DNA of 64,000 bases from Botryllus schlosseri (Eukaryota). The position numbers and the translations under genes are program-made. The number at the start of each line of letters is the position of its first letter. Position 1 is the first letter of the stretch. Where the stretch lies: NCBI GenBank assembly GCA_051294905.1, contig CM119372.1, positions 8,000,001 through 8,064,000 of the forward strand, in the 5' to 3' direction. This document shows, piece by piece, positions 4,444-60,300 of this stretch. A model generated the notes under the pieces. The model was not told the origin of the DNA. It ran no database searches and was given only the letters and a program-made list of their open reading frames with translations.

Positions 4444-12741
<8,298 letters not shown>

Positions 12742-21932: not shown

Positions 21933-23686
21933 CAGTGGTTCTTAACCTTTTTTCCTCCAGCGCCCCCTTTCAAAAATTATCGTGCTCCAGCGCCCCCCAA
22001 CCTCATATTGTAAGGAATATAATAAAGACAATGAGTAAGACGGAGGGCCGTAACAGCACTACTTCAACCACCCTAAAAACGATTGCCTTGCGCACCCATA
22101 GCGTGATAAACCAAACTTCACAGGGGTTCGCCCCCAAGAACCCCGTAGCGTGATTTCGATGGTTAACAAAGTTTGTATGGCCTGGTCGCCCTATGTACCA
22201 AAATTTTCTATAATGCATGAATGAATAGGTGGTAATTAGTAATTACATATATAAGTCGCTATAAACTTTTTATCCTCTCAGCCCACGTAATCAGATTTAC
22301 CAGTGACGCTGAGTGAGCTGTTGTATGGGAAAATAAAGGGCACGTAATTATTAATTGAACATCTTCGGACGTGCCGGTAGGTAGCCTACAATTAATTCGT
22401 TACCAGGGCCGTAACAGCACTTCGTCAGCCCCCCCCCAAAAAAAAATAACGTTGGTCTTGGGCCCCCATCGGGTGATAAACAAAACTTCCGGGGGGCTTC
22501 GCCTCCTGCACTCCCTTTCGGCTATCCGCTATTTGCTGATACTAGTCATCTACATTGGGTGTCCATTTACTGAGGCAGCTGTTCTCGCCTAGACGCGCGA
22601 AGGGCGAAAAATTTCACTAATTAATGATTGAATTGGTCAATATGATCGGGAATCGCATGTATATTGAGATAAATTTTTATCCTCTCTCTGCTCACGTAAA
22701 CAGATTTACCGGTAGAACTGAGTGATGTGTGATTGAAAAGGTAGAACCCCTCAATAATAATTATACATCTTCGGGCGTATACGCGTTGGCAGGAACGAAA
22801 CGGCACTTCGTCAGGCCCTCCGTAAAAACTTGGGTCTTGAGCTCCCATAGGATGATAAACCGACCGCCCCCCATTACGTTGTTCGCTTTGGCCACGGAAT
22901 CAGCTGTACTGTTTAGCGAGCCAGTGCGAAGCGCGAAAACTATCGACAATTCATGATACAATCGGTAAGTAAGATCGGCAATTGCATATATATTGCTATC
23001 AATTTCTTGTCCTCTCTGCTCACGTTACCAGATTTACCGATAGAGCTGAGTGAGGTGCAATGTTCCCTCTAAGCTTCGCACGTGCGCAGTGCTGACACGG
23101 TCTCTGCGCACGGAAAATCTACGTTGCGCACAACAAATCGGAAGTTATGACCTTTTTTTGGTCGTTACGCACTGTTGTCCAAGGGTCAGCGCAGTGAGTT
23201 GTTGAGTGTGCGCAGGCCGCAGACTCATCAAAATCAAAAAATATCGAATCGCCCAACAGGAATATATAGTTTTAGATATCCCTGTCGCCCAATCGTACTA
23301 AACTAAAAGACGCACACGATTTCAAATTGGTATTTTTTCACTGGCGTATAATTTCCCCTGTCAGATGGAATTCGTCTTCTGGGGTTCAGATTGCCAAGAC
23401 AGGAACATTCGGTGCCAGCCATTTAGGCGCCAATAGTCAATTAAACCTATCTATATGTCTTTTGTAGGCTATATATAACGAAGTTTTCGGTGTTAATTTG
23501 CTCTGAATACTCATTAAGGATATGTCCTACCACAACATCATCTACTGCGAAGCCATTTTTCTCCAGCGCCCCCCATACCGCCCTCCTGAGCCCAGCGCCC
23601 CCCATATCGCCCCCTGAGCGTTTCCGCCCCCTTCAAAATCGCCAGCGCCCCTTGGGGGGCGCTAGAGGCAAGGTTAAGAACCACTG
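21933..23686. mobile_element. hAT (Charlie/Buster-like) non-autonomous element with nested fragments
   Basis: CAGTGGTTCTTAACC...GGTTAAGAACCACTG TIRs, CCAGCGCCCC subterminal repeats, approximate TSD GTTAGAAT/GGTTAGAT. Confidence 0.75.
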
Positions 23687-24273: not shown

Positions 24274-25415
24274 CAGGGGTGGGCAAACTATTGAGCTCGC
24301 GGGCCGCATTCAACATCTGAATCTATTCGCGGGCCGCACTATATAAAATTGGGATTATAAACCAAAACGCAATATTGGTATTTGATTATATAGTGATGAC
24401 ATGGAGATAATATATATGCTTAATAAAACAAAACAAACATTGTTCGACACGCGTCAGAAACAGTGACGAGATTTCATAGGCTGGTCGACCTATTAATAAT
24501 CAATTTGTCAAAACTATAGAGATGAAAGTCGGTTGTTCCGATTCTTAGAACAGGATTGAAATTTAAATCTGTGAGAAGCGATCTGTTCATAGATTTACTA
24601 ATTCCACTTATTGTCCAGTTCCAGGACACACAATGCTGATAGCACCATAAACATGTTAGCTTTCAAGCACGCTGCTACTATGTGTAGATAAAATATAAAT
24701 ACCCAATTCTACGCATCAGAGAACGAATCTACCTAAGACACGCGCGAATCGTTTTTTATAAGTCCATCACTGAAATGAGTAAAACTGGAGTGGCCAATCT
24801 GAAATCACACTCGTGATCAGAATTATGTCAATCTCGTTTAGGATATCTGTGATGCTTAGCAGTTGAAACCTTTCAAACTGCGTGGGCCTTGAGATCGGGC
24901 TCTCGCGCCAGAAATTAAACATAAAAAATATTATAGGAAGTATTTACCTTAGAACAGTGATTCTCAAACTTCTTAAGATACGCCCCCCCCCCCCTTATGA
25001 TGGTGAACTATTTCGCGTCCCCCTTATCGTCATATCACTAAACGCAGCCAGGATGCTAGCCAACCTAACGAGTAGTTTGATGGCATGGAAGGCTACGACT
25101 GTGGATGAGAGATTTTTAAATACGAAATTCAGACTTAAATACAGAGCATATAATTATGAATGACATGTAAATTGCGCGAAGCGCGAAATATTTTTTCAGT
25201 TGAGTTCAGCTTCTAGCCCCTTCCAGATGCTTTCACGCCTCCAGTTTGAGAATCACTGCCTTAAATCATGGTGAAATATACTACGAAAAAGTTTAATCAA
25301 GTCCCTGCATTAATTCGATGTATAGTACGCGTTTTATCAATATTTTCAATAAGTTTCTTTACACGCTCGCGGGCCGCACAAAATGGTGTTGCGGGCCGTA
25401 GTTTGCCCACCCCTG
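24274..25415. mobile_element. hAT MITE with a nested hAT MITE at 24955-25258
   Basis: CAGGGGTGGGCAAACTA...TAGTTTGCCCACCCCTG with perfect TSD ATTTATTG. The inner element CAGTGATTCTCAAACT...GTTTGAGAATCACTG has TSD CCTTAGAA/CCTTAAAT. Confidence 0.85.
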
Positions 25416-26004
25416 ATTTATTGAATTGATACCACACTATACCGCCCACTGGCGTGGTTTTATACGACTAACGAAACGAGTTGAAAAGCTATGCCTGGGA
25501 TTGCTAAAGTTTGAGTCGCGACGGGGCCAGAGTGATCTTTTATTATGTATGTCGTATTTGTTGAATTTCTTTCAACGAAAAAAATTATTCGCGCCTCGCG
25601 CGATTACTTATGGATACTGGATAGTTTGTACGCGTTTGAGGCCACTGTGTTGGGTAGCCTACTATAGCCAATCGATCTATGTATTAAACAAATTGGTATG
25701 AATTCGTGATAACATCTGGAAAACACCGTCGGATACCGTTGGCCAAACCGTCGGATACCCTTGGCCAAAATGGCCGTCGCTGTTTGGCCAAACCCTTGGA
25801 TATTAATATGGGCGGTCGCCGAAATGGTCGGCACCGGCACTACGGAAATTCACGACGATCCTCTGCAGTTTCGGTATCGTGGTATTTCGCTTGTCCAATT
25901 GTCGGAACTGGCTTAATGTCGATACTTCCAGATGCGAATCAAGTGGGGCCACGTGAAAAGGGGGTAGTGTCGCATTATAGAGGATCCACACAAGCTCGCA
26001 ATCG

Positions 26005-29000
26005 CGTCTTTCATAATGTCAAAGATTGTGAAGAGTTATGGCTGGAAGTTGATCACCCAATTGGAATTCACAAATCTTTTCTTGTGGCCGTATTGTACCG
26101 TCATCCCACGAAAAACATGAACCAATTCGCAAAAGCGTTGGAGCACTCACTGGACAAAGTCAACAGCGACAAAAAGATGTGTTTCATTGCGGGAGATATT
26201 AACATAAACTTTCTAAAACACAAAGGCAACGCATACTCCAACGCCGTCAAATCCGCCGGTCTCTACCAAATGATCACCGAGCCTACACGCATAACCGATA
26301 AGTCAAGGACTTTGATCGACCACATATATACCAACTCGCGCGACATGGAAATCATTCCATTTGTCATTTCGGCAAAAATCAGTGACCACAACCATATTGG
26401 TTTTCTATCACAAGAACAACAAAGGACACCCCCCGAAACATATCACCTCTGCAGACGACGAGAGTTAGTGGACGAAGAAGCGCTCGATGATGCCGCATTC
26501 AATCAATTTAAAACATCAGCCATCCCCCACATCTCGATAAACAACTTTGACGAAAAATTTGTAGAGTTTATGTCTGCTATCAAATCACTGCTGGAACAAT
26601 TTGCACCTCTACAGTGCCTTTCGAGAAGTCAAAGAAAATTGATGCGAAATCCGTGGATGACCACAAAGCTGATTCAACTTATCCGTAAACGTAACCGGTG
26701 GCATAACCGAATAGACACGAAGAACTGCCCAGAACATGAACGAGAAAGATTTCGACGTTTTAGGAATCGCACCGTGCATCTCATTTACAAAGCAAAAGCA
26801 AAGTACAATGAGAGATTTTTCAACAGAAACAAAAAGGACACTCAAAAAACATGGTCAGGACTTAACTCTCTCCTACATCGGAAAAAAGGCCATAAATCTG
26901 TTTCGGAAATTGTGAATTCGGATACCGGAAACAAACTTTCAGACCCGGCGGCCATCGCGAATCACTTCAATGAATATTTTTGTAACGTAGGCCCTAATAT
27001 TGCTTCTTCTATTACAAAACCTGTGTCGGCCAGGTCAGAGGTGAGATCGATATCCCAGTCGATTGGGCTTGAACCTACGACCAAATACGAAGTAGAAGTA
27101 GCCATCCACAAACTGAAATCGCACAAGGCCGTCGGCTATGACCAAATCCCATCATGGTTTTTAAAAATGATAAGCCTGCATATCGGTCAATATATGGCCC
27201 ATTTTTTCAACTTCATGATCGAAGATGGAGTCTACCCAAGCTATCTAAAAAAAAGCCAGAGTAGTCCCGGTACACAAAGCTGGGGATAGAACTAATGTCA
27301 CCAACTACCGTCCGATATCCGTTCTCCCATGCATCGGGGTTGTATTCGAAAAGTTGCTACTCTCCCGCCTGTCCTCATTCCTCACCAAAATGTCTATCAT
27401 TTCCCCTCAACAATTTGGCTTCCGAAACAAACACCAAACCGCACATGCCCTCCTAACAGAGGCCGAGCAGTATTATGATATCTCAGAGAAGCGAAATGTG
27501 GGATGTATCATTTTTCTCGATCTAAAAAAAGCGTTTGACTGCGTGGATCATAAAATTCTCATCTCGAAATTGGCGCGTTACGGACTTCGGGGCCCACAAC
27601 TTGAGCTCATGAAAAGTTTCCTCACTGGACGCCAACAAATGGTTGCGATCTCAAACACCTTGCCCTCTCCTCACCTGGTGACCTGTGGTGTGCCCCAAGG
27701 CTCAGTACTTGGACCGGTCCTCTTCACCTTACATGTCAACGACATTTTTGAAACCTCCTCATTGAACACCACACTGTTCGCTGATGATACTCAGCTCCTC
27801 TCTTCCGCATCTTCTACGGCAGAGCTGGATGCCTTGACTGGTGACCAAATGCCTAAAGTCCATGAGTGGACGGCCCAGAATAACCTTTGCATAAACGCCT
27901 CGATAACCCAATTGCTGACAGTAAATTCAAAAAATAACCTAACCGTTAATATCGCTGGTCAGCCCGTTTCCAACACAGATAATGCCAAATACCTCGGGGT
28001 TTTACTGGACTCGAACATGTCCTGGAAGAGTCATATTCAGTCCCTAGAAACTAAATTATCACCGAAGTGCGGCCTGTTCTACAGCCTTGGGCGCTTCATG
28101 CCAGCATGGGTTCTTCTGATACTCTTTAAATCCTTAATCCAATCGAATGGCATCCTCTGTTGGGGGGCTGCCAGTAAAACTGCACTCAAGCCACTGCAGA
28201 AACTACAGCATAAAGTACTCCAAATCATAGCTAGGGCCCCAAGGGGGCCTGGCTGCCCATCCAATAAGTCGCTGCTGAAGAGATTCGGCGTCCTAAACAT
28301 AGAAGATATGCGGAAACTAGAAATCGCCAAGTTTATGTATCAGTCTCACTGCGGTCGTTGCCCCGAATACTTCAATGACTTCTTTACCTCATCATCATTG
28401 GTTTATTAGCAATTTTATTAGTTCAATACACCACAAAAAATGCGATACAATGAAAAGACAGGAAGATGTCGAAGCGACAAGGAGTAGTCTATGGAATCTG
28501 ACACCCACCTTGGCCTAGGCGATGTAAAGAGGAGGCATGCATACTGAATGAAAGTAAAGAAGATAGTATAGAAAAAGAAGCGACAAGAAATAGGGCGGCA
28601 TGTCATGGGAAGCGAGATCGATAGGTCAGTCGTGGTACCTCTGAATCAAAAGCGCACAGGTACAACACACGCGCATCCACGTCGTCCAAATATCATATGA
28701 TCGACCGAAAAGATCATCGCTCATCAAATATGCCGGACCTGATGTGTGGAACAGTATCCCGCCGGCCATCCGGCTGTCGACGAGCATGTCCACATTCAAG
28801 TCGAAATACAAGCAATTACTACTAAATAAATACATTCCATCCTCAAGATTACCGGACCACGACTGACCTATCGATCTCGCTTCCCATGACATGCCGCCCT
28901 ATTTCTTGTCGCTTCGTTTTTCTATACTATCTTCTTTACTTTCATTCAGTGTGCATGCATGCCTTTACATCGCCTAGGCCAAGGTGGGTGTCCGATTCCA

Positions 29001-29105
29001 TAGACAACTCCTAGTCGCTTCGACATCTTCCTTTCTTTTCATTGTATCGCATTTTTTGTGGTGAATTGAACTGATAAAATTGCTAATAAACCAATGATGA
29101 TGAAT
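26005..29105 (+). mobile_element. 5'-truncated non-LTR retrotransposon (CR1/L2/Crack-like) with a disrupted ORF2
   Basis: APE-endonuclease C-terminal motifs (VLYRHP, IAGDININF, EPTRIT..SRTLIDHIYTN, ISDH) and RT motifs (NYRPISVLP, QFGFR, FLDLKKAFDCVDH, GVPQGSVLGP, LFADDT, KYLGVLLD). There is a +1 frameshift in an A8 run near 27247-27254. The C-terminus HRYNTR...KYAGPDVWNSIP...FKSKYKQLLL follows an insertion, and the 3' UTR ends in AATAAA plus a (TGA)n tail near 29085-29105. The start of the tracked ORF (25706-26000) is unrelated flanking DNA. Confidence 0.92.
28391..28635 (-). mobile_element. Antisense 245-bp copy of the same LINE family's 3' end inserted in the RT C-terminus
   Basis: Reverse complement of ~28857-29101. 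It is flanked by TACCTC direct repeats (28385-28390 and 28636-28641), and removing it restores the frame FFTSESKAHRYNTR. Confidence 0.9.
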
Positions 29106-30993: not shown

Positions 30994-31776
30994 GGTGACC
31001 AGTGAACTCGACCCATGGCAAATTCGGCCCATTGAAGTCGGCCTTCGGTGAGCTCGGCCCATGGTGAACTCGGCCCATGGTGACTTTGAATATTAGGGTT
31101 GGGGAAGAGGGGTATTAGGGTTGAGGAGTAGGGATATTAGGGTTGGAGGGGGATTAGGGTTGGGTTAGGGTTCGGATAGGGGTTAGAGTATCCCAAGATT
31201 AGGGTTATAGGGTTAGGGGATATATTAGGGTTGGAGGTGTGGGACATTCGGGTTGGGGGAGGGTTAGGATTGGAGGGGGATATTAGGGTTGGGGAAGAGG
31301 GATATTAGGGTTAGAGGTGGGGGATATTAGCGTTAGGAGAGCGGGGGATGTTCGGGTCGAATATTTATTAGGGTTAAGGTTGGGGGATCCCTAATCTTTG
31401 AGATATACCGCTTTCACCAATGAGGTTTTTCCGTTTAGAGTCTGATCCTTGAGGTTCTGCAGTCTGCACTCTTCATCAACATTACACAGCTCCATATGCC
31501 TAATAAAAAGTTTTACATGTTCAACATACGATACCGCCCCCAGTGGGAATAAAATCCATACGACATGTCCACCACCACCAATTCAGTCAATTCACTATTA
31601 ATAATTATTAATTAATAGAATTCCCTACGTTTATAATAATTTTTATCAACAAATTCACCATAGGCCGAGTTCACCGAAGGCCGAGTTCACCATAGGCCGA
31701 GTTTGTCATGGGCCGAGTTCGTCATGGGCCGAGTTCAATGGGCCGAATTCGTCATGGGCCGAGTTCACTGGTAATC
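30994..31776. mobile_element. Foldback-type element with 15-bp tandem-repeat inverted arms and an internal TTAGGG-like tract
   Basis: Left arm (GGTGAACTCGGCCCAT-like)n at 30994-31088 and right arm (ATGGGCCGAGTTCACC-like)n at 31650-31776. Perfect 8-bp TSD GAATTACT (30986-30993 / 31777-31784). Degenerate TTAGGGTT repeats at ~31092-31385. Confidence 0.8.
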
Positions 31777-33246: not shown

Positions 33247-35070
33247 CAGGGGTTCTTAAAGGGTGGGCCATGGCCCACTGGTGGGCCACAGAGCCTTTTG
33301 AGGTGGGCCACAGAGCTATTTAGAATTTTAGAATTGTTGTAAGTTTAGTTATATTTCTTATGTTATTCGATCGTATTATCTAATTCAGTGGTTCCCAACC
33401 TTTTTCCACCCACGTACCACTTCCAGGTTTTATGCAGTGCTGGCGTACCACCTACAGAAGTTACGCGCCCCGAAAGCGGTCAAAAATGATGTTTTAACCA
33501 TTTATGACGTCACAATCACGTATTTGACTTATGCGCGGTATAATAACAAATTCCATTAAACTAGGCATTATCAGCCAGTGCTGACGGGATGCATGAAATT
33601 GTTTTCTTTTCGCCACCAGTCACAAGAAGAACAATATAATGAAATAACAACAAAAGTAAATTTATTTAATGCGATGGCTGCATTTGTTTATTTTCCACTA
33701 GCTGGTCGACACGTGGCATACGTTTGCTCACAGCGCATCGAAAGTCATGAATGGGCGCAACACGTCGGTTTCGGTTTTTCGTCTTGATAGTCATCAGGGA
33801 TGGAAATCCTTTCTCGCACTCACACGTAGAAGGGAAAATTAGCAGCTGGGGAATAGCGTGAGAAGCTAGCGTCGAGTACGAGGAGGCCATGCTAAGCTAG
33901 AAGTTTATTGGAGAACCATCTTTGTGTTCAATCCCACCTGAGCTAATAACTCCCTTCGGTCGAAAAAAAAACAGAATCTACTCGCGTACCACCTGGAAGA
34001 CCTTCGCGTACCACTAGTGGTACGCGTACCACAGGTTGGGAACCACTGATCTAATTGTACGTAGGCTACATAAAGCTTTTCATCCGACTATGATTAGACG
34101 TAGTGGCGCGTATGAAGTCAACATTTACAAATCCAAAACGTTAGGGAGAAACGTATTCCGGCAGGGTCATATGTCGTATGCCGTTGAAAGGGGTAGGTAT
34201 GCAATGAACTTGCAATGAAGTGCAATTGATCTACAGATTTACTGTAGGCTACTTCGGCAGGCCGTATTATTGTAAGCTAAAAATTGCCATATTTGCAAAT
34301 TATTAGTAACTTCTTGTGAAGGTATACTGCACCACCGCAACGAATCCTAATGGATTGAGGATTTATCGGAACGCATTAATCTTTGAAGTCGGTTTAAAAT
34401 GTCCGGCATGGAAATCATTGTACATAATGAAAGAGTCACAGGAATTGATTGTATCATTGGATTGAATATTCTGACATCGCAACTTCAGATGTTTTGGTAC
34501 AAGACGTACAAAGTATATCATGCATATTGAAAAATCTTTCTTCACTTCCCTGTAGTACCCCATTCACCAATGAATTGTTCGATGCTGGCCCAGAATGATT
34601 ATAATATTCCCCACAATAGTATCACTGAAGTCCCAATCACACAGTGCAGGGATCTGATCATTGTGTTTCGCGACGCGAATGGAGCAGCGGACGAAAATAA
34701 TCTACTTAGGAGTTTTAGCTTATGATATAGCAGGGCCGTAACTGCCGCACCCACACCCCCAATTGGGGGAGCCGAAGGAGCCCAAGATTGTCTCGTTGGT
34801 CGTTTGTTGGAGGATATTTGGTCGTTTGTTGGAGGATATTTATTCAAGTTGAAATTTCTTTTCGCGCTTCGCGCGATTCCATATCCCGGGAGATTGAGAT
34901 TTAAATATCATCAGTTAGAGAAAAATGCGCATATTCTAGAGAAATAGGCATCTGGGCGCTGTCCATGACCACGCAATAAACAGGATTATGACTCTAAGAT
35001 ATCAGGTGGGCCACAGCACATTTTCAATCCGGAAAATGGGCCATGGCCAAGAAAGGGCTGAGAACCCCTG
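33247..35070. mobile_element. hAT MITE interrupting a LINE 3' fragment
   Basis: CAGGGGTTCT...AGAACCCCTG with perfect TSD GTCTAGGC (33239-33246 / 35071-35078). Confidence 0.85.
33386..34048 (-). mobile_element. Buster/Charlie-type hAT deletion derivative retaining the transposase C-terminal dimerization fragment
   Basis: TIR CAGTGGTTCCCAACC...GGTTGGGAACCACTG with perfect TSD ATCTAATT. ORF 33666-33890 reads LLIFPSTCECEKGFPSLMTIKTKNRNR...DFRCAVS..PRVDQLVENKQMQPSH, typical of hATC/ZBED5/FAM200-like ends. Confidence 0.9.
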
Positions 35071-35481
35071 GTCTAGGCGAAGTAAATAAGAGGCATGCAC
35101 ATTGCACACTGAATGAAAAGTAATGCAGAGAATATAATACCATAGCAATTTACAACGTACGCTACGTTGTAAATTGCTATGATAAGACGCAAGCGACAAA
35201 ACGAGGTGGTATGTGGCGGAGGGCGATGTCGATGTTAGGTCGTGGTCCGGTAATCCGGAAGACTGGCTAGTATTCAGGTCTTTGGTCTGACCCGGCCGGG
35301 TATCAAACCCACGACCTACCGATCAGGAAGCCGGAGAAGTATGGCAACTCTACATTGTAGAGATTGTAGTTTCATCATAATCGTTTACAATAGTGTTGGA
35401 AACAATCTCTCACCATGGAAAACTGAATGCTCTCACCATAGTGTCCTGTAGGACACTATGCTCTCACCATAGTGTCCTATA

Positions 35482-37285
35482 TGGTGTCGACACAAGCAAA
35501 TCTCACGGTTCAATGAAATTGTATCACGTCACAATTTCCATTTGGCTACGGGCAATTTAACGGCCATTTTTGACCGGCTTGCCGAGCATTAAATTTGATG
35601 AGTCGGGTATCAATCGAAAGCTGACTCTGCACTGATTACGAAAATATAAATTTTATTCCACTCATGGCCCTGGAACCCCCACAATCAGCCCCAAATTATT
35701 CATTGTTAAGTAGGTTGGCAGTGTGACGCAACAATGCTGTCTGGCGAAACCAAAGACTAGCTCAAGAGCAAGGATGCGGCCGAGCGGCGAGAGTGGGATC
35801 AGCTGACGTCGCGGCAATAGCAATGAGCAATCGCGTCGCAGAGAAACGCTGCGCTGTTGATACTTTTCTATGCGCTTTTTATGCAAACTCTGTTGGGCCG
35901 AATGGACAATGGACATTCAGTTATTCACAGATGCGAAAAAAATAATGCAAATCCGTTTTACGTAAGTTACATTAGGAATATAAATACAGGCTACAGAATG
36001 AATATAATTCAAATATCTGTGATACCACTGTATTACTTTTGACGCAAAAGGTCCCCAGCATTCAAAAAAACTGTTTGGTGATTGAAAAATGATAAACCAA
36101 ATTCCAACGTCAACGTTTATAGTGATATCAGATATATTCCAGTGAAAAACAAAGGTATGGATTTGGTGGTAACATTTTGGAGTCATTTGACAGGTCTGGC
36201 CCGCAAACTTTCCAATAACGGATTGAATCCGGACAGCGATCCCAGTTTAATTCGACACTCCTGCTGTTAAACTTTATTCAACAATTAACATTTTACCTGC
36301 TGCATTCGCGGACCAAGTCCTACCATTACGGATCAAATAAAAGCTTGTAATGTATGCCCATGCTCAATGCTCATTGCTCACACTTAACCATAAAAGCGAC
36401 TATAGAAAGTATCGACACCCGCCATCACCAGCGCCACGCATCTCTGGAGCCCTACGCAACAAGCGGCTAAGGTAATCGATATCATAATAATCTGACATAT
36501 TCAATGTAGACTACTTAAACGTAGCCTACATATCTCCATCAGCTGAAGAAAATTGCGCGAAAATTGGTAGGGACCAAAAACATTGTGTGGACCCAGTTCT
36601 ACCCTTACAAGTCAAGGAAAGGCTGGCATGTGGTCGCTTTTAGCGAAGCGCCTATAGAAAGTATCAACAGCGCCACGCGTCTCTGGAGCCCTACGCAACT
36701 AGCGGGCTAAGGCAATCGATATCATAATAATGTGACATATCCAATGTAGACTATTTTAGACGTAGCCTAAATATCTCTATCAGTTGAAGGATAATGCGCG
36801 AAAATTGGTAGGGCCCTAATACATTCTGTGGACCCAGTTCTACCCTTAAAAGTCAAGGAAAGGCTGATAAGGCGTGCTCGCTTATACCGAAGCCCATAGA
36901 AAAGTATCAACAGCGCAATGTTTCTCTGCGACGCGATTGCTCATTGCTATTGCCGCGACGTCAGCTGATCCCACTCTCGCCGCTCGGCCGCATCCTTGCT
37001 CTTGAGCTAGTCTTTGGTTTCGCCAGACAGCATTGTTGCGTCACACTGCCAACCTACTTAACAATGAAGAATTTGGGGCTGATTGTGGGGGTTCCAGGGC
37101 CATGAGTGGAATAAAATTTATATTTTCGTAATCAGTGCAGAGTCAGCTTTCGATTGATACCCGACTCATCAAATTTAATGCTCGGCAAGCCGGTCAAAAA
37201 TGACCGTTAAATTGCCTGTAGCCAAATGGAAATTGTGACGTGATACAATTTCATTGAACCGTGAGATTTGCTTGTGTCGACACCA
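35482..37285. repeat. Long near-perfect inverted repeat (~390-bp arms) enclosing two ~250-bp tandem units
   Basis: 35482-35872 is the reverse complement of 36895-37285 with only a handful of mismatches. Tandem units lie at 36401-36652 and 36653-36894, and a diverged copy of the arm lies at ~130-375. Confidence 0.9.
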
Positions 37286-37328
37286 AAGTCACTCAACTAT
37301 GACATAGTTGAGTGACTTTGGTCGACAC

Positions 37329-37660
37329 CAGAGATGAGCATGGATTAGGATTAGGTTTTGAAAAAACAGGATTTGTGAAATTTTGTCGGATTAGGATTTG
37401 GATTGGATTGACTTATTTTCTGGGAGATTGAAATGTCGTGTGGCGAATGGCGACGAACTTTATTTAGATCAGTTAATAATGTACTTATGGTTACTAAGTT
37501 ATCTTGAATCAAGTGAATCGTTGGTTGTGTAAGAAAATTTTCGAATCCCTCTGTTGCATAAATTAGTATTTTTTCTGAATTTCCAGTTGGAATCGGATTA
37601 GGATTGGACATGGACTTGAACATGAAAAAGTAATGGATTAGGATTTAGATTTGGTATGCT
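37329..37660. mobile_element. Partial MITE with a CAGAGATG end and GGATTAGGATT subterminal repeats
   Basis: Related element at 61783-62004 (CAGAGATGTGC...GCTCATCTCTG). No TSD confirmed. Confidence 0.5.
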
Positions 37661-37810
37661 TGAGTAATCTGAAGGTTTGGATTATTACCATTCGCATATT
37701 CGCTTCGCTGCGCTGTGTTGTTATTCTGCGACTTCCCGACGTAATGCTGTATCTGGTTGCTGCAAAATTGTATTGGGTGCATTAATTATTATCTGACTGT
37801 GCATATCGGC

Positions 37811-40800: not shown

Positions 40801-43800
40801 TTATCAGCTGGCTAAGACGATGCTGAGCGCGTTCAAAGACAACGGAATAACCAGCGATCAAACCGATATCATTGAAGGATTTATTGCGGAGTACGAGGTC
40901 ACAAAGAACATGCCCGAATGGAAACAACGCATCATTGTCCGGGATATTATCAAACTGTTGAAAAGTGACGAGAGAACCGGAACTGCCGGGCACAGTGCGA
41001 ACCGGCGTTCCCTGAGGTCGAGGGTCGGCGCACGTCGTTGGTCCCGCACAAGGGTAAAGCGTAGCGTGGATGATGCAGAAGCGACTACTTCTAGTATAGG
41101 ACTATTGGACGCGGTCAAAAACTTTACAAGTGTACTGTCGGAGGTAAGGAGCAGACTCTGACAACTAGAAAATTTTCATCTTTTTCGAATTTGATTAGAA
41201 TTAGAATTGGAATGATAACTAAGCAGTTTCTTCCAAATCATATTAGAATTAGAATTATATATAGCTATGTTGTCCACTGTCCAGCAGTGTTGGGATCAAG
41301 TCACTACCTTCGAGTCACGAGTCATCTCGAGTCATTGCACATTTTGACTCGAGTCAAGTCAAGTCAATCGATTTTCAAAGGTGACTCGAGTCAAGTCAAG
41401 TCACTCGTTTTTTGGATGTGACTCGAGTCAAGTCAAGTCAAGTCAGGACGAGTCACGAGTCAAGTCACAATTCAAGTCAATTTGAATTTTCGAAGTGTCA
41501 GTGACGATTCAAAGTCATTACAATTTGCTAGCTGTGTGTAAGACAGAATAATTTGCCATTTATCTTGCATCAAATAATGAATATAAAGCTTAATATGCAT
41601 GCAAGAAGGCTTCTATCACGCACACGTAGAACCGCAAATATAATAAGCAACTATGTATAGCCACGCTACAGTCTGTTATAATATCAGCCAATAGGTTCGA
41701 ATACGAAGCCTCGAGAAGTTGTAACAAATTGATATGAATTTGAATCTTTCAAGAGGGTTGGTAAAGGTGATCACTATGCAATGTTAGCACTGAGCCGTCC
41801 AAGAAACATAGATATGTTAATTGCTATTGTATTCTTATTCTACTTCCTCTACTACTATACTACTACGACAGCGTAACCTGTGATCATTTCGTCTGTGGTC
41901 AATATATTTGTGATGCAATAATGGAGGATGATTCAAACGTACATTCAGTGAATTCCTGGTTACTCTCACAAGTGACACAAGCGTATCGCGAACAATACGA
42001 ACATATGCACAAAATACACTGATTTGATTGATACCGTCTACTTGATGACTTGAAATTGACTCGTAAATTTTGGTCCGAGTCACGAGTCAATCGGCATTTT
42101 TGAAGCGCCGAGTCAAGTCAAGTCATTTTTACAAAGTGACTCGAGTCAAGTCAAGTCATACGAAAAAGTGACTCGAGTCTGACTCGAGTCAAGTCATGAC
42201 TCGAGTCATCCCAACACTGCTGTCCAGTAATGAACTAATTCTGCTTGTTCCCAAGTGCTTCACTGATTATGTTTTTAGACTACTTGCGCTTCTACTATAC
42301 AATTATATTTATTTCGGAAAAACTATTTACTTTTCACAGTTTGTATTTTAACAAGTAGAATGTGGTTTTGGGACATGATTGGATCACTTTTCCGAGTGAA
42401 ATTTTCATGACAACGGGGGGGGGGGGGGCATATCACGGCATGTGAATATGTTTTCCAAAATTACACCTGGTGTCATTGGTCCTTTTGTGTTAGTCACAAA
42501 GATGCACCCTGTAATTTCTGGGGCTAGAGATTAACTGCTAAAGGTGTGCCACCCATGACCGTATCTACTTTTTGAAACTACTTGCCTGAATAATTTTCCG
42601 GCATACATTTTCTGCTTGGAAGTAATTTTGACATAGTTGATATTGCTACTCGTACTTGTAATTTAGAGGAAAGTTATGGCAGGGCTTCTGCTGCTCTGTC
42701 TATACTTGAGTAGCAACACTGACTACTTTGACCACCTGTGTTATTGGAGTGCATTATTAATCAACTCTGTCATTTTCTTTAATTTGTAGAAAAAGGACGC
42801 CGCTATTGAAAGCTTGACTCCTTTTGTCACGGAGAACTCTTATCTCTTTCTCTGCGTCCTGATCATTCTTGTCGCGGGTAAGTAACTGATGTGATTTATG
42901 TTCGCATTTGTTGTTGCGTAAAGGAAATTTCGCGTCTTAATCACGGATGTGTGATTTATGTATGAGCTAACTTCCTGTGCACACCATGGGATCAGATGAT
43001 CATGACCAACAGACCAAGAGGATTATGCTTAGCCCATAATAGACATAATAAACTATCTGAAATCGCTGTGTGTAGTCTTGATTGCAGGTAAATGTTCATT
43101 AGTACCCCTACAGTAGCAATTGGTAATTGGAGACTAATGATTAGGAAAGCAATAATTAACTGATAAGTGATCACCTGATTAAGAAAGGACTTGGAGATAA
43201 GCTGGCGGGACGATACTCATGTAAAAACATGCCCTTTCGTGTAACAGACAAATGTAAATTGTCAACGCCTGTATCCTGCTACTCGGTAGAAGGAACACTT
43301 GGCATCGTTACTGCATTTCCTGTGTGACTCCGAGACTATTGTGTTAATCGGGGATGCGCTCTTTCCTTACTGTAACTGTTGTGGAAGCTGTGGAAATATA
43401 CTTTTTCTAGGTAGCGCAAGACGGGCGATGACTCTCCTCCATCTAAATAACGTCTGTTAATTTGATAACAGGAATCTGCCTGTTAGTTATTAATATAATA
43501 TGATTTGTGTAATGATATGAGTTGTTTGACGCTATTTATAACTTTCATCCTTTAAGTTTCTTGTTGCTGCAACTCTGGCACTATGCCTATCAAAATACGA
43601 TGCTGTGTTAGTGGTTGTTAGGGCTGGTTACAGTGATTCGAGTGTTAATAATAATGGACTCGAGTCGTGTAATGAGAGACGGTTTTTTCGTGTACTTACA
43701 TTATATGCCCCTTTCCTTCCGGTGAGAGTGATCTTATCAACGAGAATTGTAGTTTCGTTGCTTTGTCGCAGCGTATAAATTTTGAACTGCCAATATTTTC

Positions 43801-49800: not shown

Positions 49801-51616
49801 CGGCTTCGGGAGCATGATATCTGGATTTCTCTACGATTATCTGGACGGGAAAATGACCCCCGTGCTGGTCGGAGGCGGGATACTGGTGACGGCGTGGGGC
49901 TGCGTCTTTGTGATGTATCAATGCTGCTGCCTGCCGAGAAGACTGCAACGGAAATATTCCCATCTTCTGTCGGATTCGGACAGCGACGTCGATTTGAACG
50001 AGAGTCGGAAATTCGGCAGTGAGTATTTGTTTGTCGCAACGAGACTTGCGCAAACTAGGACTGCTCACTTTTCAAAACTCCGTAACTAGAAGAACTAGCA
50101 CTGACAAACTTTGAAAATCCGCAACTGATGGGCTGAAACACACCTAGCCAGGGTTTTAATGACTTGAGTCATGACTCGACTCGAGTCTGACTCAAGTCAC
50201 AATTTTCTGATGACTCGACTTGACTTGAGTCATTTTTTCAAGATACGAAATGACTCGACTCGAGTCAATCTGTTTATTGACTCGACTTGGACTCGAGTCA
50301 TTGCGTATGACTCGAACCAAGTCATATGACTCGAGACTCAGACGGCCAGGACAAACATTTCATTGCAACTTCGAAAAAGAGTAAAGTAACCACACTATTG
50401 GGATTTCGTCTATTGGTACTGGTACTTGGAAATGCGAAATTAGTATATTATAAATGCGAACCATTCGATATCACTAAACAAAGTTATTAAAAGTCGGTTT
50501 AACAAGACTTCAACTGGAAACTGATCAATCAGTCGGTGGTGAATTGAATTGAATTGAAAATGTCTCGATTTGACTCGAGTCAAAACTATGAAAGTAAGAT
50601 TGACTTGTGACTCGGAGCCTTGCGACTTGGTCACAACCCTGCAACTAGCTAGATTCAATTCCGAAGCAGCTCATTAATTTTTACTCTATCGTAATCTGGT
50701 CGGCTTTCAACATGAGCATTAGTACAAAATTACTGATGAACGAGACAGAATACCAAAATACAGAGTAAACTTAGTAAGTAGCGATGACTTTGAGCTATCA
50801 ATGGCCGCAAGAACATCACACAACAGAACACCGGTATCACGATTTACACCAGAAGACGACTCTTGGCACTCAATTAACTTCAAATGCGCAACTAGAACAA
50901 CTCACTTTTGAAAATCGGTAACTAGAACTACTCGAAAAACTAGTAGTTAGTTAGTAGAGAATTCAAAAAAACATTGTACATCCACAATCGTATCACAAAA
51001 TATGACATCACAAGCATGAAATGTCGAATACGAGAGCGTTCAATGTACTAATTTTAGATGATACTCAAACTCTTTTTGTTGACACAGCCTTGGCTGGTGT
51101 ATTTTGATAAAAAGTCGACTCCAAGGCACACTAATGAAAGGGCGAACGACCCTTTCCGAGCACGATTGTTGTGATGCGATTGTTGATATACGATGTTCTT
51201 TTGAATTCTCTACTAGTTGCTGACGATTACCCCTGACGAGTGTCAGCCGAAAATATTCGGGTTCATTTCAATATGAATACACTATTCAATTGTATATTGA
51301 AGTTCTGTACCTCCAAGAAGCTGTTTAATACACCACTAGAACTAGAACTACTCAATAACTGACCATCAACTTAGTAGATTGTTAGTTTGTGCAAGCCTGG
51401 CTGCACTATCTCTGACCAGCCAGTCATCCTTGTCCCGTTACAGAGAAATACAAGGAGAGGAACGGGAACTACTCTAGCGTGGACGATCAGGGCAAGACAA
51501 GAAGGGACAAGAAAAAGATACAGAGATTTCAGACCAATATCGACACGGACACTTCGGAATCGGACGAAAACGACTGGTTGAAGTCGAGTATGAAAAAAGA
51601 GTCTAGGATGCTGTAG
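37811..51616 (+). CDS. MFSD6L: Major facilitator superfamily domain-containing protein 6-like (11 coding exons, ~770 aa)
   Basis: Exons 37811-38034, 39923-40122, 40557-41143, 42790-42877, 44222-44411, 46890-47057, 47578-47705, 47768-47941, 48012-48163, 49790-50018, 51444-51616 (2313 nt, GT-AG, phases consistent). The N-terminal WDMKRSVFIASAFYFFYYGGKACLFPFLTLYFRQLGL, the many hydrophobic segments, the KYSHLL motif and the C-terminal ENDWLKSSMKKE resemble MFSD6L-type proteins. Confidence 0.88.
41285..42219. mobile_element. hAT MITE with GACTCGAGTC/AAGTC subterminal repeats
   Basis: CAGTGTTGGGAT...ATCCCAACACTG with perfect TSD CTGTCCAG. Confidence 0.9.
45683..46770. mobile_element. hAT MITE (GGCCCGCGG subterminal motif)
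   Basis: CAGGCCTGGGC...GCACACCCCTG with perfect TSD CTCTATAT. Confidence 0.8.
50040..51400. mobile_element. MITE with AACTAGAACT repeats in the last MFSD6L intron, containing a nested GACTCGAGTC-family MITE (50149-50641)
   Basis: Ends GACTTGCGCAAACTA / TAGTTTGTGCAAGCC. The inner element CAGGGTT...AACCCTG has TSD CACCTAGC/CAACTAGC. A further inverted pair lies at ~50952-51215. Confidence 0.65.
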
Positions 51617-54313: not shown

Positions 54314-57300
54314 CTACATAATGACGCAAGCCTTGGATGGCTTGTTTTCGCCTATTTTTTCTTCGATCTGCTTGATTTCTGTTGACGGTAGATCCCTCCC
54401 AGTCTGCAAAATACTGGCGAGCCGTTCCCTCTAAAACAGTAAGTAGTACACTTGTGAAACCTAGGAATAGGGGAAAGTAACCTGCATGGCTACTCACCAA
54501 TATAGTTTCTTTCTTCAACCGTTTAGCTTCATTAACCACAGCTGTCACTAGCGCCTAGGACACACAGAAGGATTAAAGTACATGGACTAGATCACAGACG
54601 ACAAGACTTACCATTTTGCTGTTAACCGATTCACCGCCTTGAAAGCCTACGGATGTGCGGGTGGTTGAGGCCTCTTTCTGGAATGCAAAATACATAATTC
54701 AATGACCAATCAAGTGATTTCGCCAGCATTGCTTAGATTCCTAAGAACAAAACAGGTGAAAAATTGAAGCTGTGACTAATACACAACAATAAGAAACTTC
54801 ACACTATATGTTTTGAATTTAAGCAATCTGTAGGTTAAAACCAGGGTCCGACTCAAGTTGCGATTTTTTGATGACTCGAGCCATTTTCTTCAAATACGGA
54901 AAATGAAGCAGCCAAGTCATAAAACTCAATACTCGGATGGCCAAGACAGGCATATCAATGTATAACTTCGAAGAATAGTAAACTTACTACGTTATTCATA
55001 TTTCGTCTATCAGTACTGCTACGGTACTTAAGATTGATGAAATTAATATATTAGGAATGCGAGGCTGCAAAACTTGACCTGAACTCGAAACTGAACAGTG
55101 AATACAATGACTCGGACTCGAGTCTCAACATTATGACTGAGACTCGACCCACTCCTCGATTTGACTCAGTGGTGAATTGAAAATTGTCTTGACTCGAGTC
55201 AAAACAATCAAAGTGAGATTGACTTGTGACTCGGTCAGAATCATGGTTAAACCATAACAATTCATTCGCTTATTATTATTTTCGTCAATTAAAAAATATA
55301 GCACATTCAAGCACAATACTAGTTTGCAATTAAGATTAGTGGACCAGAATGTCAAATCAATCAATCAGGTTTATTAATATTTTCATTGTTTCAAAAACAT
55401 CACAAGACTGCGATACAATGAAAAGATAATATATTTTCGCCTGCACCATCGAGATGCTTTGACGATGGAGATGCAATACGACCCTTAAGCAAAGTCATCT
55501 AGTCTGCCATCACCATTACACTATCTCGCTCGGGCGTGTGTGCCTCTTATATGCTCATTCTGTCATTAATATTAGTAGGCAAAGGTGAGTATTTGACGAA
55601 AAGACTACTTCCCATCTCTTCGTTGTATCGCAATTTTGTGGCGTTTCGAATTGAAGAAATTATTAATAATCTGAACTGAACTGAATGAGATTGTGATACA
55701 ACGAAAAGATGGGAAGGAGTCGGATCGACTTGGTGAAGTCAATCCATCAAACTCACACCTCGGCCTTGGAATACTTCAACAACAAATCACTTACGTCTTT
55801 AGCTGCTCTCAGCCTGTTCACCTCGGCCCGCAAGCTTTGAATTTGAACTTCTTTTTGCCTCAGTGCTTTTTCGGTCTCCGGATTAACGACGGCGGCAGTT
55901 TTCTTCTCCGTCCCTTTCTTTGTTTGCGTATCTGCCTTTCGGCTGCCGGCCGCGCCTTTATCGAAACTGTATCGCAACTTATCTTCGTCCAACCCTGCCA
56001 ATTGTTTGGTGGTCATGTTGGCGAGAGAAGAATCAAGATTCTGTAAAACAACATATCGTTGATCAGGCGTTATTGCAAAAGAGCAGGGATGGGAGAACAA
56101 CAAATTGGATTCACACGAGTGTTAGTTGAAAGGATTCAAGTATCGACAGCTACTACTTTTGTAAGCTTTCAAATACCGAGCCTCCACAAACAGGACTCAT
56201 TTATGGAGTGAGGATCATAATGTCTTGCAGAGACGGTCCAACTAGAAGTATAAGATATAAGGTGGCTACCTTCGAAAATTGCAGGGTGCACATTCGTGAA
56301 TAACGCCAAATGACAATTGATACAGCGAACCGGTGCGATTTTTAAAGGTATATTCAGTTACTGTGAAGCTGTTTCACGCAGTTCTTATGGCAATTTCACT
56401 CAAAAAACTGACGAAAACTTATCCCAAACAGGCTTGATGCATAAATAAAAAGCGTAGGAAGTATGCAACTATCTTATTTCAATGTCAGTTTAATAGAATC
56501 ATCTGAGTTGAACACTATAAAAAAAATTCTTCACATCAACTTACGCCTGGCTTTTGCCTGCCCCACACTTGTATTATCAACGCAGCATCCAGCAAGTCAT
56601 TCAGGAGCTGAAATACAAAATATATATCCATTGACCATAAATCATAAAAGGTGACTAATGGTTACACGTCTCCTAGTAAAATGACAGGACAATGCCGGAA
56701 CAATTTTGTTTGAACCTATTTCCAATGTCATGATACTTTGACAGAAGTGACTGGTAACAGAATATTATGGTATTTAGTCTGTTGGTGCTATGCAGTGTGC
56801 AGCATATGACAGATCCAAAGTGCCCGGTAGAAAGGGCTGTGGTGGAAATAAGCTAATTAAGATATCTGATCATGTCAGCGGTTCTTAACCTAGAGTCCAT
56901 GGAACCCTTGGGGGTCAGCGGACAAGTTTCAAGGGCTCCATGAAAGGTCTATCTCAAAGGTCAAACTACAACTAGAAAGCTACATTATTCTTCATAAGAT
57001 ATGTCCTTATTTTCAACTTATGTCTATATTACGCAAAAGCTACGACTGTTATTTTAGTCACCGGGTAGCTTTTTAGGCTACACAACTGGGCCAGATGGCC
57101 AAATGAGGTCTCGATAACGACTTCGGTGGGTTCTTATGGGTTCCACGCAACGATGCAAAAAAATTTAGGGGTTTGCTCTAGAAAAAAGGTTAAGAAACAG
57201 AGGACTATTCTATCACGTGAGCGTAGTTAACTCTACATTCTAGATTTCTTACTGTTTTCGTAACAGGATTGAGGGGGAAGGTCTTCTCAAAGTCGATCAG

Positions 57301-60300
57301 TGGATTTCCCGACGACAATTCTATCACTTCGCTTGTGTTCCAATCGTTGGACTGATGCATTTTATACCTACACCAAACCTGAATTGAAGGAAGATCATAA
57401 GATTGTAAGTCGTCAGATAAGGAATTTCAGGAGAATAAATCTGAAAATACGTGGATCATAAAAGAATGCAACGGTATTATTTCCCAAAATAAACATACCG
57501 CACCGGTACCCAAATATTGTGAAATTGTCCGGGAAATGAATCGGAATCTGGGCGGTCACCCAACTGGGCAAGTAGTCCTTAACCCAGCGTTGGGATCAAG
57601 CCGCTACCTTTGAGTCACAAGTCCTCTGGAGTCATTGCACATTTTGACTCGAGTCAATTCAAGTCAATTGATTTTCGATGGTGACTCGAGTCAAGTCAAG
57701 TCACGTGTCAAGTCACCAGTCGAGTCAAGTTGAAATTTTAAAGTACGAGGCATGGTCCAAAGTCATTGCATATTGCTGGCTGTTTTAAATGCAGATTGAG
57801 CCCGCATATATTATGAATCGAGGAAAGAATATAGAATTAAATATACACGTAAAAAGGCGTTGTACCGTTCACACACAACGGAGTACTCCTACTTTTTCAG
57901 AGTAATCGAATAGGGGTTTTGCCCATTTGCACTGCTCAAGTGGTTGCGGTTTCAGACTACTTCCAGTCGAGTCATTTTCAATTCACCACCGAGTCGAGTC
58001 CAAGTCAGCTAGCAGAGGGTCGAGTCCGAGTCATAGTGTTTTGACTCGAGTCCGAGTCATTATCACTGTTCAGTTTTCATTTCGATCCAGTTCAACCCAC
58101 TTTTTTCAAGTCTGCTCGAGTGATATAGAATGGCTCGAATCCATAATATAGTAATTTTCCTCAGTCTCGACAGTTTCTAACCCAATTTTCCAAGTATCAG
58201 GACTGATAGATGAAATACCAATAATGTGGTAACTTTACTATTCTGCAAAGTTGCACTGAAATGTCTGTCTTGGCCGTCCTAGTCTCGAGTCAATGACTTG
58301 GTTCGAGTCATGCACAATGACTCGAGTACAAGTCGAGTCGATACAAAAATTGACACAAGTCGAGTCATTTTACGCATTTGAAGAAATGACTCGAGTCAAG
58401 TTGAGTCACCATAAAATCGAGTCATTACAACACTGTGTATCGCTCACACATACTTAGAACCGTAGTTTTGACATGTCATGGAAATCTACTTGAAATTGAG
58501 TGGAAATTTACGGAATTACTTCAACTTCTAACCCTGAACGTGATGTGACACAAAGTTTGGATAAAACGGGCGTGGCGTACGCCAGAATTAAAACAGATCT
58601 CAAAGCAATTACTTACATGAGAAAATTTCCTGTTCAATCCAAGGAGTTGTTCGATGCGAATTTTGAGGCACAACGACCTTCCTAGTAACTCATTTGGGTC
58701 GTCTATAAATTCGTCGTCCGTAAATGGCCCGCCGTTTGCGTGGCACGGCAGGATGTTGATCTGAAAGCGAGCAAGGCTAATCAACTACTGATCACAACCC
58801 ATTTCAAATTTGTTGGGTCTGATGCTGGAATCAAGATGCAAATACGCTTGACAGAGATGCACTGATTAACAAGTCAAATTCCAGATTTTAGAACGCAAAT
58901 CAAAAGTCTGAAAGCGTAGGGTAGAGTGGGGTAAAACGCCCCACCCCTTAAAGTCCAGTAACTATGGATTGCGTAGCCGTTTATGGGTTCATCAATGATG
59001 TCTTCTCGGGGAACGCCATTTCTATCAAAATTGCGATTCAGCTGGAGAATATAGGATGTCCCTCTGACTAAACAAGATACATTTCAAGAACTTCCGACTT
59101 TGTTTATGACTTATCATAATCAGTTGGTGTTTCTGGATGAAATTTGTTTTCAAAAGATCCGGTACGCCATAATGAGGTGGAGAAGCATGTATAGGTCTGT
59201 ATAGGGATTACATAATTATCATTTACCGAGTGGCATGCGGTATTTAGTAGTGTATAACGGGGTAAAAAGCCAATGGAGGCGTTTTGCCCCACCCATGCAG
59301 CAAAACGTCAAATTGATGGACATAGATTAATGATAATTTTACACATGATAATTTATACTTGCACTTTCCAGACGATAGGGGTAGAATGGGGACGATATCT
59401 CGCGCGCGAATTCCGAAATTCAATCTGTTTCGACTAGTTTGGTGGATATTATGACGTTTCCCGCTTAGGGTAGGCGTGTTGCCCCATTCTACCCTATCGT
59501 ACAACTTGGATTCATTCAAAATTCCAAGGACCTTGTAAATGATTACAAATTCCGTTTCCAAAATTAATTTAGCTGAGTCAAATTAGATCTGAATAAGGTC
59601 ATAATCCAAAGTCATGCTCTGGTTATCAGTAGCAAGGTTAATTTTAGTTCGTAGCATCCTCAACTTGTGGTACAGTCAGTGTCATTTTCCTAAGAGCTAG
59701 CCAATCAATCGACGGTGCTAGTATTTTTATGTGCCACACAATGTGCAATGCAATGCAGTGGACAGTTTGGAGGAGTTACGGAACTATCAAGTAAGGCAGT
59801 GGTGGGCAATTATTTTTACCGACGGGCCAAATGTGAAGCAGAAAATACGTTGGTGGGTCGACACAAAACTTTAGACTATGGTCTGCTGTGTCCAGTTTTA
59901 TTTCGCAATTGAAAGCAGTGGATTACATTGGCCCGCAGGCCGCACAATTCCCAGGCCTGAAGTAAGGTCTATCAAGAGCGAGTATGTATTCATACTATTT
60001 TATGATAGCCCCCATATAATGATTTCATTTCTTATTGCTTTCCAATACGAAATAAGAATTCTCACTGTAAACAACATTTTACAACTTACTCAATGAATAC
60101 CAACTACAGCTTGTCGATACCGACAATACAGATACCGGTCCGACCATCATAAGCTTTGTTCGTACCCTATAAAAATATCCACCTGTACATCACTTACACA
60201 AGTCACATCAATCAACATAGATATTATCGCCCGAGAAATGTAGCTGAGCATGACATACCTTCATCTTACATTCTTCTTTCGAAGTAGAACTGGTCACAGG

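What the first reader, a model, noticed from the sequence alone, without database searches (positions are those of the whole stretch)
35407..35483. Repeat-spacer micro-array: CTCTCAC x3 separated by short CAT...ATG units (stacked transposon scars)
Seen: CTCTCAC (35407-13) CATGGAAAACTGAATG, CTCTCAC (35430-36) CATAGTGTCCTGTAGGACACTATG (an 11+2+11 hairpin), CTCTCAC (35461-67) CATAGTGTCCTATATG, then the long inverted-repeat arm. Established: P-superfamily elements start with CA and end with TG, make 7-8 bp TSDs, and Drosophila P excision leaves roughly 16-17 nt of each end. Inference: one target site was hit repeatedly. Each insertion/excision cycle added a 7-bp repeat and a spacer, producing a CRISPR-looking chronological record of transposon visits.
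Basis: partly seen in the sequence, partly recalled or inferred. Interest (0 to 1): 0.7.

Follow-up and report, generated by a model that had tools for sequence, protein, structure and literature searches.

The report
Transposon scars stacked at one target
At one spot in an animal genome a 7-base word is repeated around two short stubs and the start of an abundant 1.8-kb element, and the number of repeats differs between chromosomes; the stubs are likely scars left by jumping genes, probably of the fruit-fly P type, that reused the same target, a clear natural case of a known mechanism.

Summary
The array is exactly as described and is not chance (0 of 500 shuffles), but it holds two stubs, not three. 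The third 'spacer' (35468-83) is the left tip of a very high-copy, gene-less 1.8-kb foldback element: about 100 contigs per run with unrelated flanks start there. Stub 2 (24 nt) is, with one substitution, that element's two tips joined at a 4-base overlap, as P-element excision scars are, and recurs at three other loci. Three alleles were seen (T = the 7-mer): T-stub1-T; T-stub1-T-T; and the window's T-stub1-T-stub2-T-element. So the 7-mer is a target duplication, the site was reused and stub 1 is oldest. The order of stub 2 and the element cannot be read, so it is not a polarised, CRISPR-like log. P/Galileo-type membership is likely (CAT...ATG tips, 7-bp duplication, AC before the tip), but no transposase could be linked, and stub 1 has no known parent. 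Target restoration, double insertion and such scars are published for Drosophila P; this is a tidy new natural example with an allele series.

The parts
35407..35413 (+). 7-bp target copy T1
   Evidence: covered without a listed difference in X15 record 6 and X1 record 1
35414..35429 (.). Stub 1: 16-nt CAT...ATG unit, not a hairpin; likely an old one-ended excision scar of another family; parent not found
   Evidence: shared by all three alleles; no copy within 2 mismatches elsewhere in the window
35430..35436 (+). 7-bp target copy T2, context ATG-T-CAT; the place where the three alleles part
35437..35460 (.). Stub 2: 24-nt hairpin = both tips of the adjacent element joined at a 4-base TATA overlap, with 1 substitution; likely excision scar
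   Evidence: absent from two alleles, and a like unit at three other loci
35461..35467 (+). 7-bp target copy T3, context ATG-T-CAT; left duplication of the long element
35468..35877 (+).
   Evidence: depth step and heterogeneous loose ends at 35466/35468 in 4 of 4 runs; arms 98% complementary over 396 nt
35878..36889 (.). Element interior, with a 241-bp tandem repeat (36424-36916); no Pfam match
36890..37283 (-). Right arm; ends at an 8-bp word at positions 17-24 from the expected tip; the outer tip and the fourth 7-mer are missing
37284..37320 (.). 37-nt hairpin (18+1+18) between exact 8-bp duplications (37276-83, 37321-28): first unit of a second stack, nested in the right arm
37329..37654 (+). 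Truncated element beginning CAGAG at the same 8-bp site; no inverted right end seen nearby
   Evidence: right boundary inferred from the flank match
37655..37668 (+). Probable resumption of the original right flank
   Evidence: 18-mer from the flank of the empty allele matches 37651-68 with 2 mismatches, the only match in the window; 1 of 100 shuffles gives one

Best explanation
The array is one 7-bp target word that exists in two, three or more copies on different chromosomes and was likely hit several times by cut-and-paste elements, probably of the P/Galileo type, with stubs 1 and 2 as likely excision scars and the third piece as the tip of an element still in place. Shown: the 7-mer is duplicated around stub 2 relative to an empty allele; stub 2 matches the two tips of the neighbouring high-copy family; stub 1 predates the allele split. 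Inferred steps: (1) an element with CAT...ATG tips inserted and left 16 nt (stub 1). (2) The scar's ATG/CAT ends rebuilt the flanks of the target, so the word stayed attractive. (3) An element of the foldback family inserted into T2; on excision its 16-17-nt single-stranded tips annealed at TATA and left stub 2. (4) Another copy of that family inserted at the same word, before or after step 3. (5) On another chromosome an insertion at T2 left both 7-mers and no residue. (6) The right tip of the resident element was then itself hit twice at an 8-bp word and lost in a deletion.
For: Depth rises from 39-99 (35340-35435) to 575,938 (35468-99) in X2 and from 102-204 to 1,662,599 in X15. Loose ends with unrelated letters (agreement 0.36-0.41) sit before 35466/35468: 107/105 contigs in X2, 93/88 in X15, 39 at 35466 in X16, 20 at 35466 in X5. 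Three alleles: X15 record 6 (3967 nt, depth 102) leaves after T2 into flank; X1 record 3 and X2 show one extra 7-mer and then that flank (22 of 24 letters alike, compared by eye); X1 record 2 and X2 record 15 carry the window form. Joining the tips gives stub 2 with 1 mismatch; 24 nt is one of four lengths (14, 16, 24, 26) that a 16-17-nt overhang gives with a 4-base overlap. Three records with unrelated left flanks align over stub 2 and its 7-mers for 35-38 letters with 3 differences each. The 16-nt one-ended product has the form of stub 1; P itself gives a 16-nt one-ended junction through a CAT overlap (3 isolates in Table 1 of PMC2895639). Target restoration, an insertion hotspot at bp 19-26 inside the P tip and excision of one member of a double insertion are described in PMC2577343; double insertion in 10.1101/158386; 7-bp GTANTAC duplications and long repeat-bearing arms for Galileo in PMC4168063.
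Against: No transposase is linked: 0 of 21 ORFs in the element match Pfam, and no genome is held. No allele without stub 1 was seen and no parent for it was found. The element's right tip and right duplication are missing here, so its own 7-bp duplication is not seen in this copy. The 7-mer fits GT-nnn-AC at 3 of 4 positions only. Neighbouring hairpins of 37 and 40-41 nt exceed 17+17, so other families would need deeper cuts or fill-in. The overlap enumeration was made after seeing the stub. Only two samples covered the site (X16 near zero, X20 nothing), all data are assembled contigs, and the right flanks of the three other loci were not visible.
Confidence: 0.72

Rival explanations
1. Stub 2 arises without a staggered transposase cut: the 98%-identical arms fold back during replication and the host deletes the stem between short direct repeats (TATA at positions 11-14 of each tip), leaving a palindromic remnant.
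For: The arms are long and nearly perfect; TATA is self-complementary and so forms a direct repeat across the stem. A like process for bacterial composite transposons is recalled, not checked.
Against: A 10-bp palindrome at positions 17-26 would offer a longer repeat and predict 42-nt remnants, yet the unit seen here and at three other loci is 24 nt (the stretch laid could only catch the 24-nt form, so this is biased). Slippage between 7-mers would remove one copy and cannot give the T-T allele. It still needs repeated insertion at the same word.
Confidence: 0.12
2. Stub 2 is a 24-bp mobile mini-element that inserts as such, so the stack records insertions only.
For: Same-length units at four loci with related 7-mers; a neighbouring 40-nt palindrome is also multi-copy (28 contigs in X2 lack base 35160).
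Against: It equals a predicted overlap join of the neighbouring element's tips, and a dominant junction recurs in P experiments too (14 isolates each for two junctions, PMC2895639 Table 1). P-type elements carry internal transposase-binding sites beyond the tip (PMC7776569 passage), which 12 bp per side would lack.
Confidence: 0.08
3. The stack is real, but the family belongs to another superfamily with CA...TG tips (for example hAT-like) and the stubs are internal-deletion remnants.
For: No transposase link; the nested CAGAG and CAAAG units use 8-bp duplications.
Against: 7-bp duplication, CAT...ATG tips, excess of AC just before the tip, long arms with tandem repeats, and scars that keep element tips all match P/Galileo. 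hAT scars altering the flank rather than keeping tips is recalled knowledge.
Confidence: 0.06
4. The repeats are chance or local slippage duplications unrelated to transposition.
For: The T-T allele alone could be a simple 7-bp tandem duplication.
Against: 0 of 500 shuffles; stub 2 matches the tips of a high-copy family that starts at the third repeat; like units at other loci.
Confidence: 0.02

Closest known systems
Drosophila P-element donor-site junctions after excision (PMC2895639, passages and section 7 with Table 1; PMC7776569 passages)
   Same: Both target copies kept around a remnant of the element's tips, joined at short overlaps; hairpin and one-ended 16-nt products
   Different: 7-bp rather than 8-bp duplication; natural alleles, not an induced assay; cut depth here is inferred; no junction without any residue between two whole target copies appears in that table
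Target-site restoration by P tips and the singed-weak double insertion (PMC2577343, passages and section 12); P tandem dimers by double insertion (bioRxiv 10.1101/158386, passages)
   Same: ATG-target-CAT context rebuilt by the tips; the same word reused; a target-like word just inside the tip that is itself hit (bp 19-26 in P, positions 17-24 here)
   Different: Here the neighbours are scars of at least two families plus one resident element, and the steps are visible as an allele series
Galileo (P superfamily, foldback-like; PMC4168063 passages)
   Same: 7-bp duplication with a GT...AC consensus, long terminal arms, tandem repeats, copies without transposase, other elements nested in the arms
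   Different: No sequence relationship tested; no transposase fragment in this copy; not a fly genome
CRISPR repeat-spacer arrays (recalled knowledge)
   Same: Only the look: one repeat is added with each insertion
   Different: 7-bp repeat, spacers are the elements' own tips, no cas genes or leader, no shown polarity, one allele adds a repeat without a spacer

Membership tests
P superfamily (incl. Galileo) | Tips CA(T)...(A)TG | tested here: met
   Left tip mapped to 35468 by loose ends; the right tip is seen only through stub 2, as the resident copy has lost it
P superfamily (incl. Galileo) | 7- or 8-bp target-site duplication | tested here: met
   Exact 7-mers around stub 2, single 7-mer in the empty allele; 48 = 41+7 skipped at the neighbouring CATAG hairpin
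P superfamily (incl. Galileo) | Palindromic target preference GT...AC | tested here: inconclusive
   Loose ends at 35466 (AC shared before the tip) are as common as or commoner than at 35468 in all four runs, but counts may saturate at 128 and no flank census was possible; this 7-mer fits 3 of 4 positions
P superfamily (incl. Galileo) | THAP-domain P transposase in autonomous copies with the same tips | not testable with these tools
   No genome held; this copy is non-coding, 0 of 21 ORFs match Pfam; viral and metagenome scans found no element
P superfamily (incl. Galileo) | About 17-nt staggered cut at the tips | tested here: inconclusive
   Stub 2 fits a join inside the first 14 nt and stub 1 is 16 nt, but one scar length does not fix the cut, and 37- and 40-41-nt hairpins nearby are longer than 17+17
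P superfamily (incl. Galileo) | Subterminal transposase-binding sites or short internal inverted repeats | not tested
   Not separable from the 410-bp arms without family alignments
Galileo-like foldback elements | Long terminal inverted arms with tandem repeats inside the element | tested here: met
   396 nt at 98%; 241-bp tandem repeat reaching into the arm end
CRISPR array | Long repeats, foreign spacers, cas genes, polarised growth from a leader | tested here: not met
   7-bp repeat; stub 2 is element-derived; no cas family among 40 ORFs scanned; animal-type, intron-rich sequence; order of units 2 and 3 unreadable

The most novel reading that the evidence does not exclude
In this animal, P-like families with CAT...ATG tips write self-extending scar stacks: every scar rebuilds the target, families share targets and also hit a target word just inside each other's tips, and each family carries an ATG-like word at its own cut depth (16 nt in the resident element, 18 nt in the 37-nt hairpin). 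Stacks and their allele series would then be a genome-wide natural record from which cut depth, repair choice and reuse rates of unknown P-type transposases can be read without any experiment.
Probability: 0.3. Interest if true: 0.55.

Novelty: new member of a known kind. Interest (0 to 1): 0.38.

Why it matters
It shows, in natural alleles outside flies, the sequence of events predicted by the P-element target-restoration model: empty target, doubled target, scar plus a fresh insertion of the same family. Because the parent's tip sits beside its scar, the repair join can be read directly. Practically, 16-41-nt stubs between 7-8-bp repeats are a source of small indel polymorphism that annotation misses or takes for micro-elements or CRISPR-like arrays. 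No new enzyme or host function is shown.

Tried and rejected
Whole-genome census: not possible, no genome is held. Viral contigs: 0 matches to the hairpin pattern. Metagenome contigs: 2 loci (L001, L002), rejected as chance, since the only BLAST match to the window was 19 nt of L002. Runs X16 and X5 had next to no depth on the single-copy flank and X20 laid nothing: no evidence either way. Summed contig depth was not turned into a copy number, as overlapping contigs inflate it. The CAGAG-type end at 61995-62005 was considered as the far end of the nested element and rejected: it is not followed by the 8-bp word. Searches of earlier scan notes by place (near) and by sequence gave nothing. Pfam: 21 of 21 element ORFs of 40 aa or more and 19 others out of the window's 148 ORFs of 75 aa or more were scanned; only a LINE endonuclease/RT and an FHA exon matched. 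The flank match is weak at 3 mismatches (15 of 100 shuffles) and holds at 2 (1 of 100). Paper searches for stacked natural scars or tunicate P elements gave no direct report (listings only); the library lacks most subscription papers, and no supplements were read.

Full report
Observation. The six pieces are at the stated coordinates. A pattern of three identical 7-mers with CA...TG spacers of 12-47 nt occurs once in the window and in 0 of 500 dinucleotide shuffles; CAT...ATG units between identical 7-mers number 2 against a mean of 0.11. Short units with inverted 5-nt ends and a 7-8-bp duplication (up to 1 mismatch) number 6 against a mean of 0.61 and a maximum of 3 in 100 shuffles; one of the six is the inner part of another and one lies in an unrelated repeat family. 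The window is intron-rich, animal-type DNA with a LINE and an FHA exon. No whole genome is held, so the evidence comes from contigs of public runs. I call the 7-mer T, 35414-29 stub 1 and 35437-60 stub 2.

The third piece is an element tip. Laying four runs on 34700-35640 gave single-copy depth over 35340-35435 (39-99 in X2, 102-204 in X15) and 575,938 and 1,662,599 over 35468-35499. Contigs leave the stretch into unrelated letters before 35468 and 35466 (agreement 0.36-0.41): 105 and 107 in X2, 88 and 93 in X15; 39 at 35466 in X16; 20 at 35466 in X5, a different organism label. No loose end at 35484 is among the six best per run, but 1611 rows were not shown. So a very abundant family begins at 35468. 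Its arms are 98% complementary over 396 nt, its interior has a 241-bp tandem repeat, and 0 of 21 ORFs match Pfam. The frequency of ends at 35466 means many copies have AC just before the tip, as Galileo (GTANTAC, PMC4168063 passages) and P (ATRGTCCGGACWAT, PMC2577343 passages) prefer; contig counts may saturate, so this is a hint.

Stub 2 comes from that family. The first 10-14 nt of the tip joined to its reverse complement give stub 2 with one mismatch. With 16- or 17-nt overhangs, overlaps of 4 bases give products of 14, 16, 24 and 26 nt; the 24-nt one joins at TATA. This enumeration was made after seeing the stub. P transposase leaves 17-nt 3' overhangs, and the junctions keep both target copies and are mostly joined at short overlaps (PMC2895639, section 7 and Table 1; PMC7776569 passages). 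Three records with unrelated left flanks (X1 records 4 and 5, the latter also seen as a loose end in X2; X15 record 7) align over stub 2 and its 7-mers for 35-38 letters with 3 differences each. Only loci whose 7-mer resembles T could be caught, so the unit is probably common (inference). Their right flanks and the places of the differences were not shown.

Alleles. On 35338-35467, X15 has one record (3967 nt, depth 102; 7 differences in 130 letters) that runs through T-stub1-T and then into other sequence. X1 and X2, one sample and probably the window's source, show two branches after 35437: the window form (X1 record 2, depth 8.8) and a form with one more T and then the same flank as X15 (X1 record 3, depth 6; 22 of 24 letters alike, compared by eye). 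Hence three states: T-stub1-T, T-stub1-T-T and T-stub1-T-stub2-T-element. This shows the 7-bp duplication around stub 2 and dates stub 1 as oldest. The T-T allele is most simply an excision with no residue, but a plain tandem duplication cannot be excluded. X20 laid nothing. An 18-mer of that flank matches only 37651-68 in the window (2 mismatches; 1 of 100 shuffles; 15 of 100 at 3 mismatches), so the flank likely resumes near 37655.

The right end. The right arm stops at an 8-bp word at positions 17-24 from the expected tip. A 37-nt hairpin and a second copy of the 8-mer follow, then an element starting CAGAG with no right end nearby. This is a second two-step stack inside the first. P has a target-like word just inside its tip and a hotspot at bp 19-26 (PMC2577343 section 12). 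A deletion likely removed the nested element's end, the outer tip, the fourth T and a few flank bases.

Mechanism. Shown: duplication, reuse, family match of stub 2, age of stub 1. Inferred: the staggered cut, annealing at TATA, and the reason for reuse. T2 and T3 both sit in ATG-T-CAT, the context that P tips rebuild and that is proposed to keep a used site attractive; double insertions and excision of one partner are described (bioRxiv 10.1101/158386 passages). Stub 2 may have preceded the resident element, or be the remnant of the left member of a tandem pair; the data do not tell. Stub 1 has the form of a one-ended 16-nt junction, which P also yields (3 isolates), but it has no parent in the window and no empty allele.

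Comparison and novelty. It works like P-element target reuse with excision scars. Membership of the P superfamily is likely on tips, duplication length and foldback anatomy, but the transposase test could not be run. It is not CRISPR-like in mechanism. Six paper searches (listings and abstract starts) gave the component mechanisms but no report of natural scar stacks with an allele series; the library is incomplete and no supplements were read. Unchecked notes of this scan report P transposons, similar scars and another 7-bp stack in the same genome, and call it a sea squirt; I use them as leads only. Verdict: real, largely explained by known P biology, new member of a known kind, interest 0.38.

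Noticed in passing
window 35141-35181: 41-nt CATAG...CTATG hairpin with a 7-bp duplication (1 mismatch) inside a multi-copy repeat. Other copies skip 48 = 41+7 letters (joint 35133 to 35182 in all four runs), and 28 contigs in X2 and 20 in X15 cover its centre without base 35160, so a 40-nt perfect palindrome is multi-copy. Longer than 17+17.
   Followed up: partly
window 37276-37340: Second stack at an 8-bp word inside the right arm: 37-nt hairpin, then a CAGAG element. The hairpin's 18-nt half ends in CTATG, as the resident element's first 16 nt end in TATG, which may mark a cut depth.
   Followed up: partly
window 6791-6813 and 23257-23284: 23-nt and 28-nt units CAGG...CCCTG between exact 8-bp duplications; probably scars of one further family.
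   Followed up: no
window 25377-25391: 15-nt CA...TG unit between exact 7-mers, not a hairpin; may be another one-ended scar or chance (about 0.9 such 7-mer units expected per shuffled window).
   Followed up: no
window 157-375: Older, 77%-identical piece of the foldback arm, without the tip.
   Followed up: no
window 35404-35435: In one search X15 depth doubles here (204 against 102), but lays only one X15 record on most of this stretch; unexplained.
   Followed up: no
window 25688-28409 and 28389-29103: LINE with endonuclease and reverse transcriptase in two overlapping frames, followed directly by a small foldback with 96-98% arms.
   Followed up: no
window 30998-31772: Element with inverted arms of 16-nt tandem units around degenerate TTAGGG-type repeats.
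   Followed up: no
window 41285-42208, 50160-50615, 55106-55234, 57585-58428: Dispersed family rich in a palindromic ACTCGAGT-centred word; it accounts for most exact 8-mer-flanked units.
   Followed up: no
window 61794-62005: Short element with CAGAGATG-type inverted ends like the nested element at 37329, without a clear duplication.
   Followed up: partly
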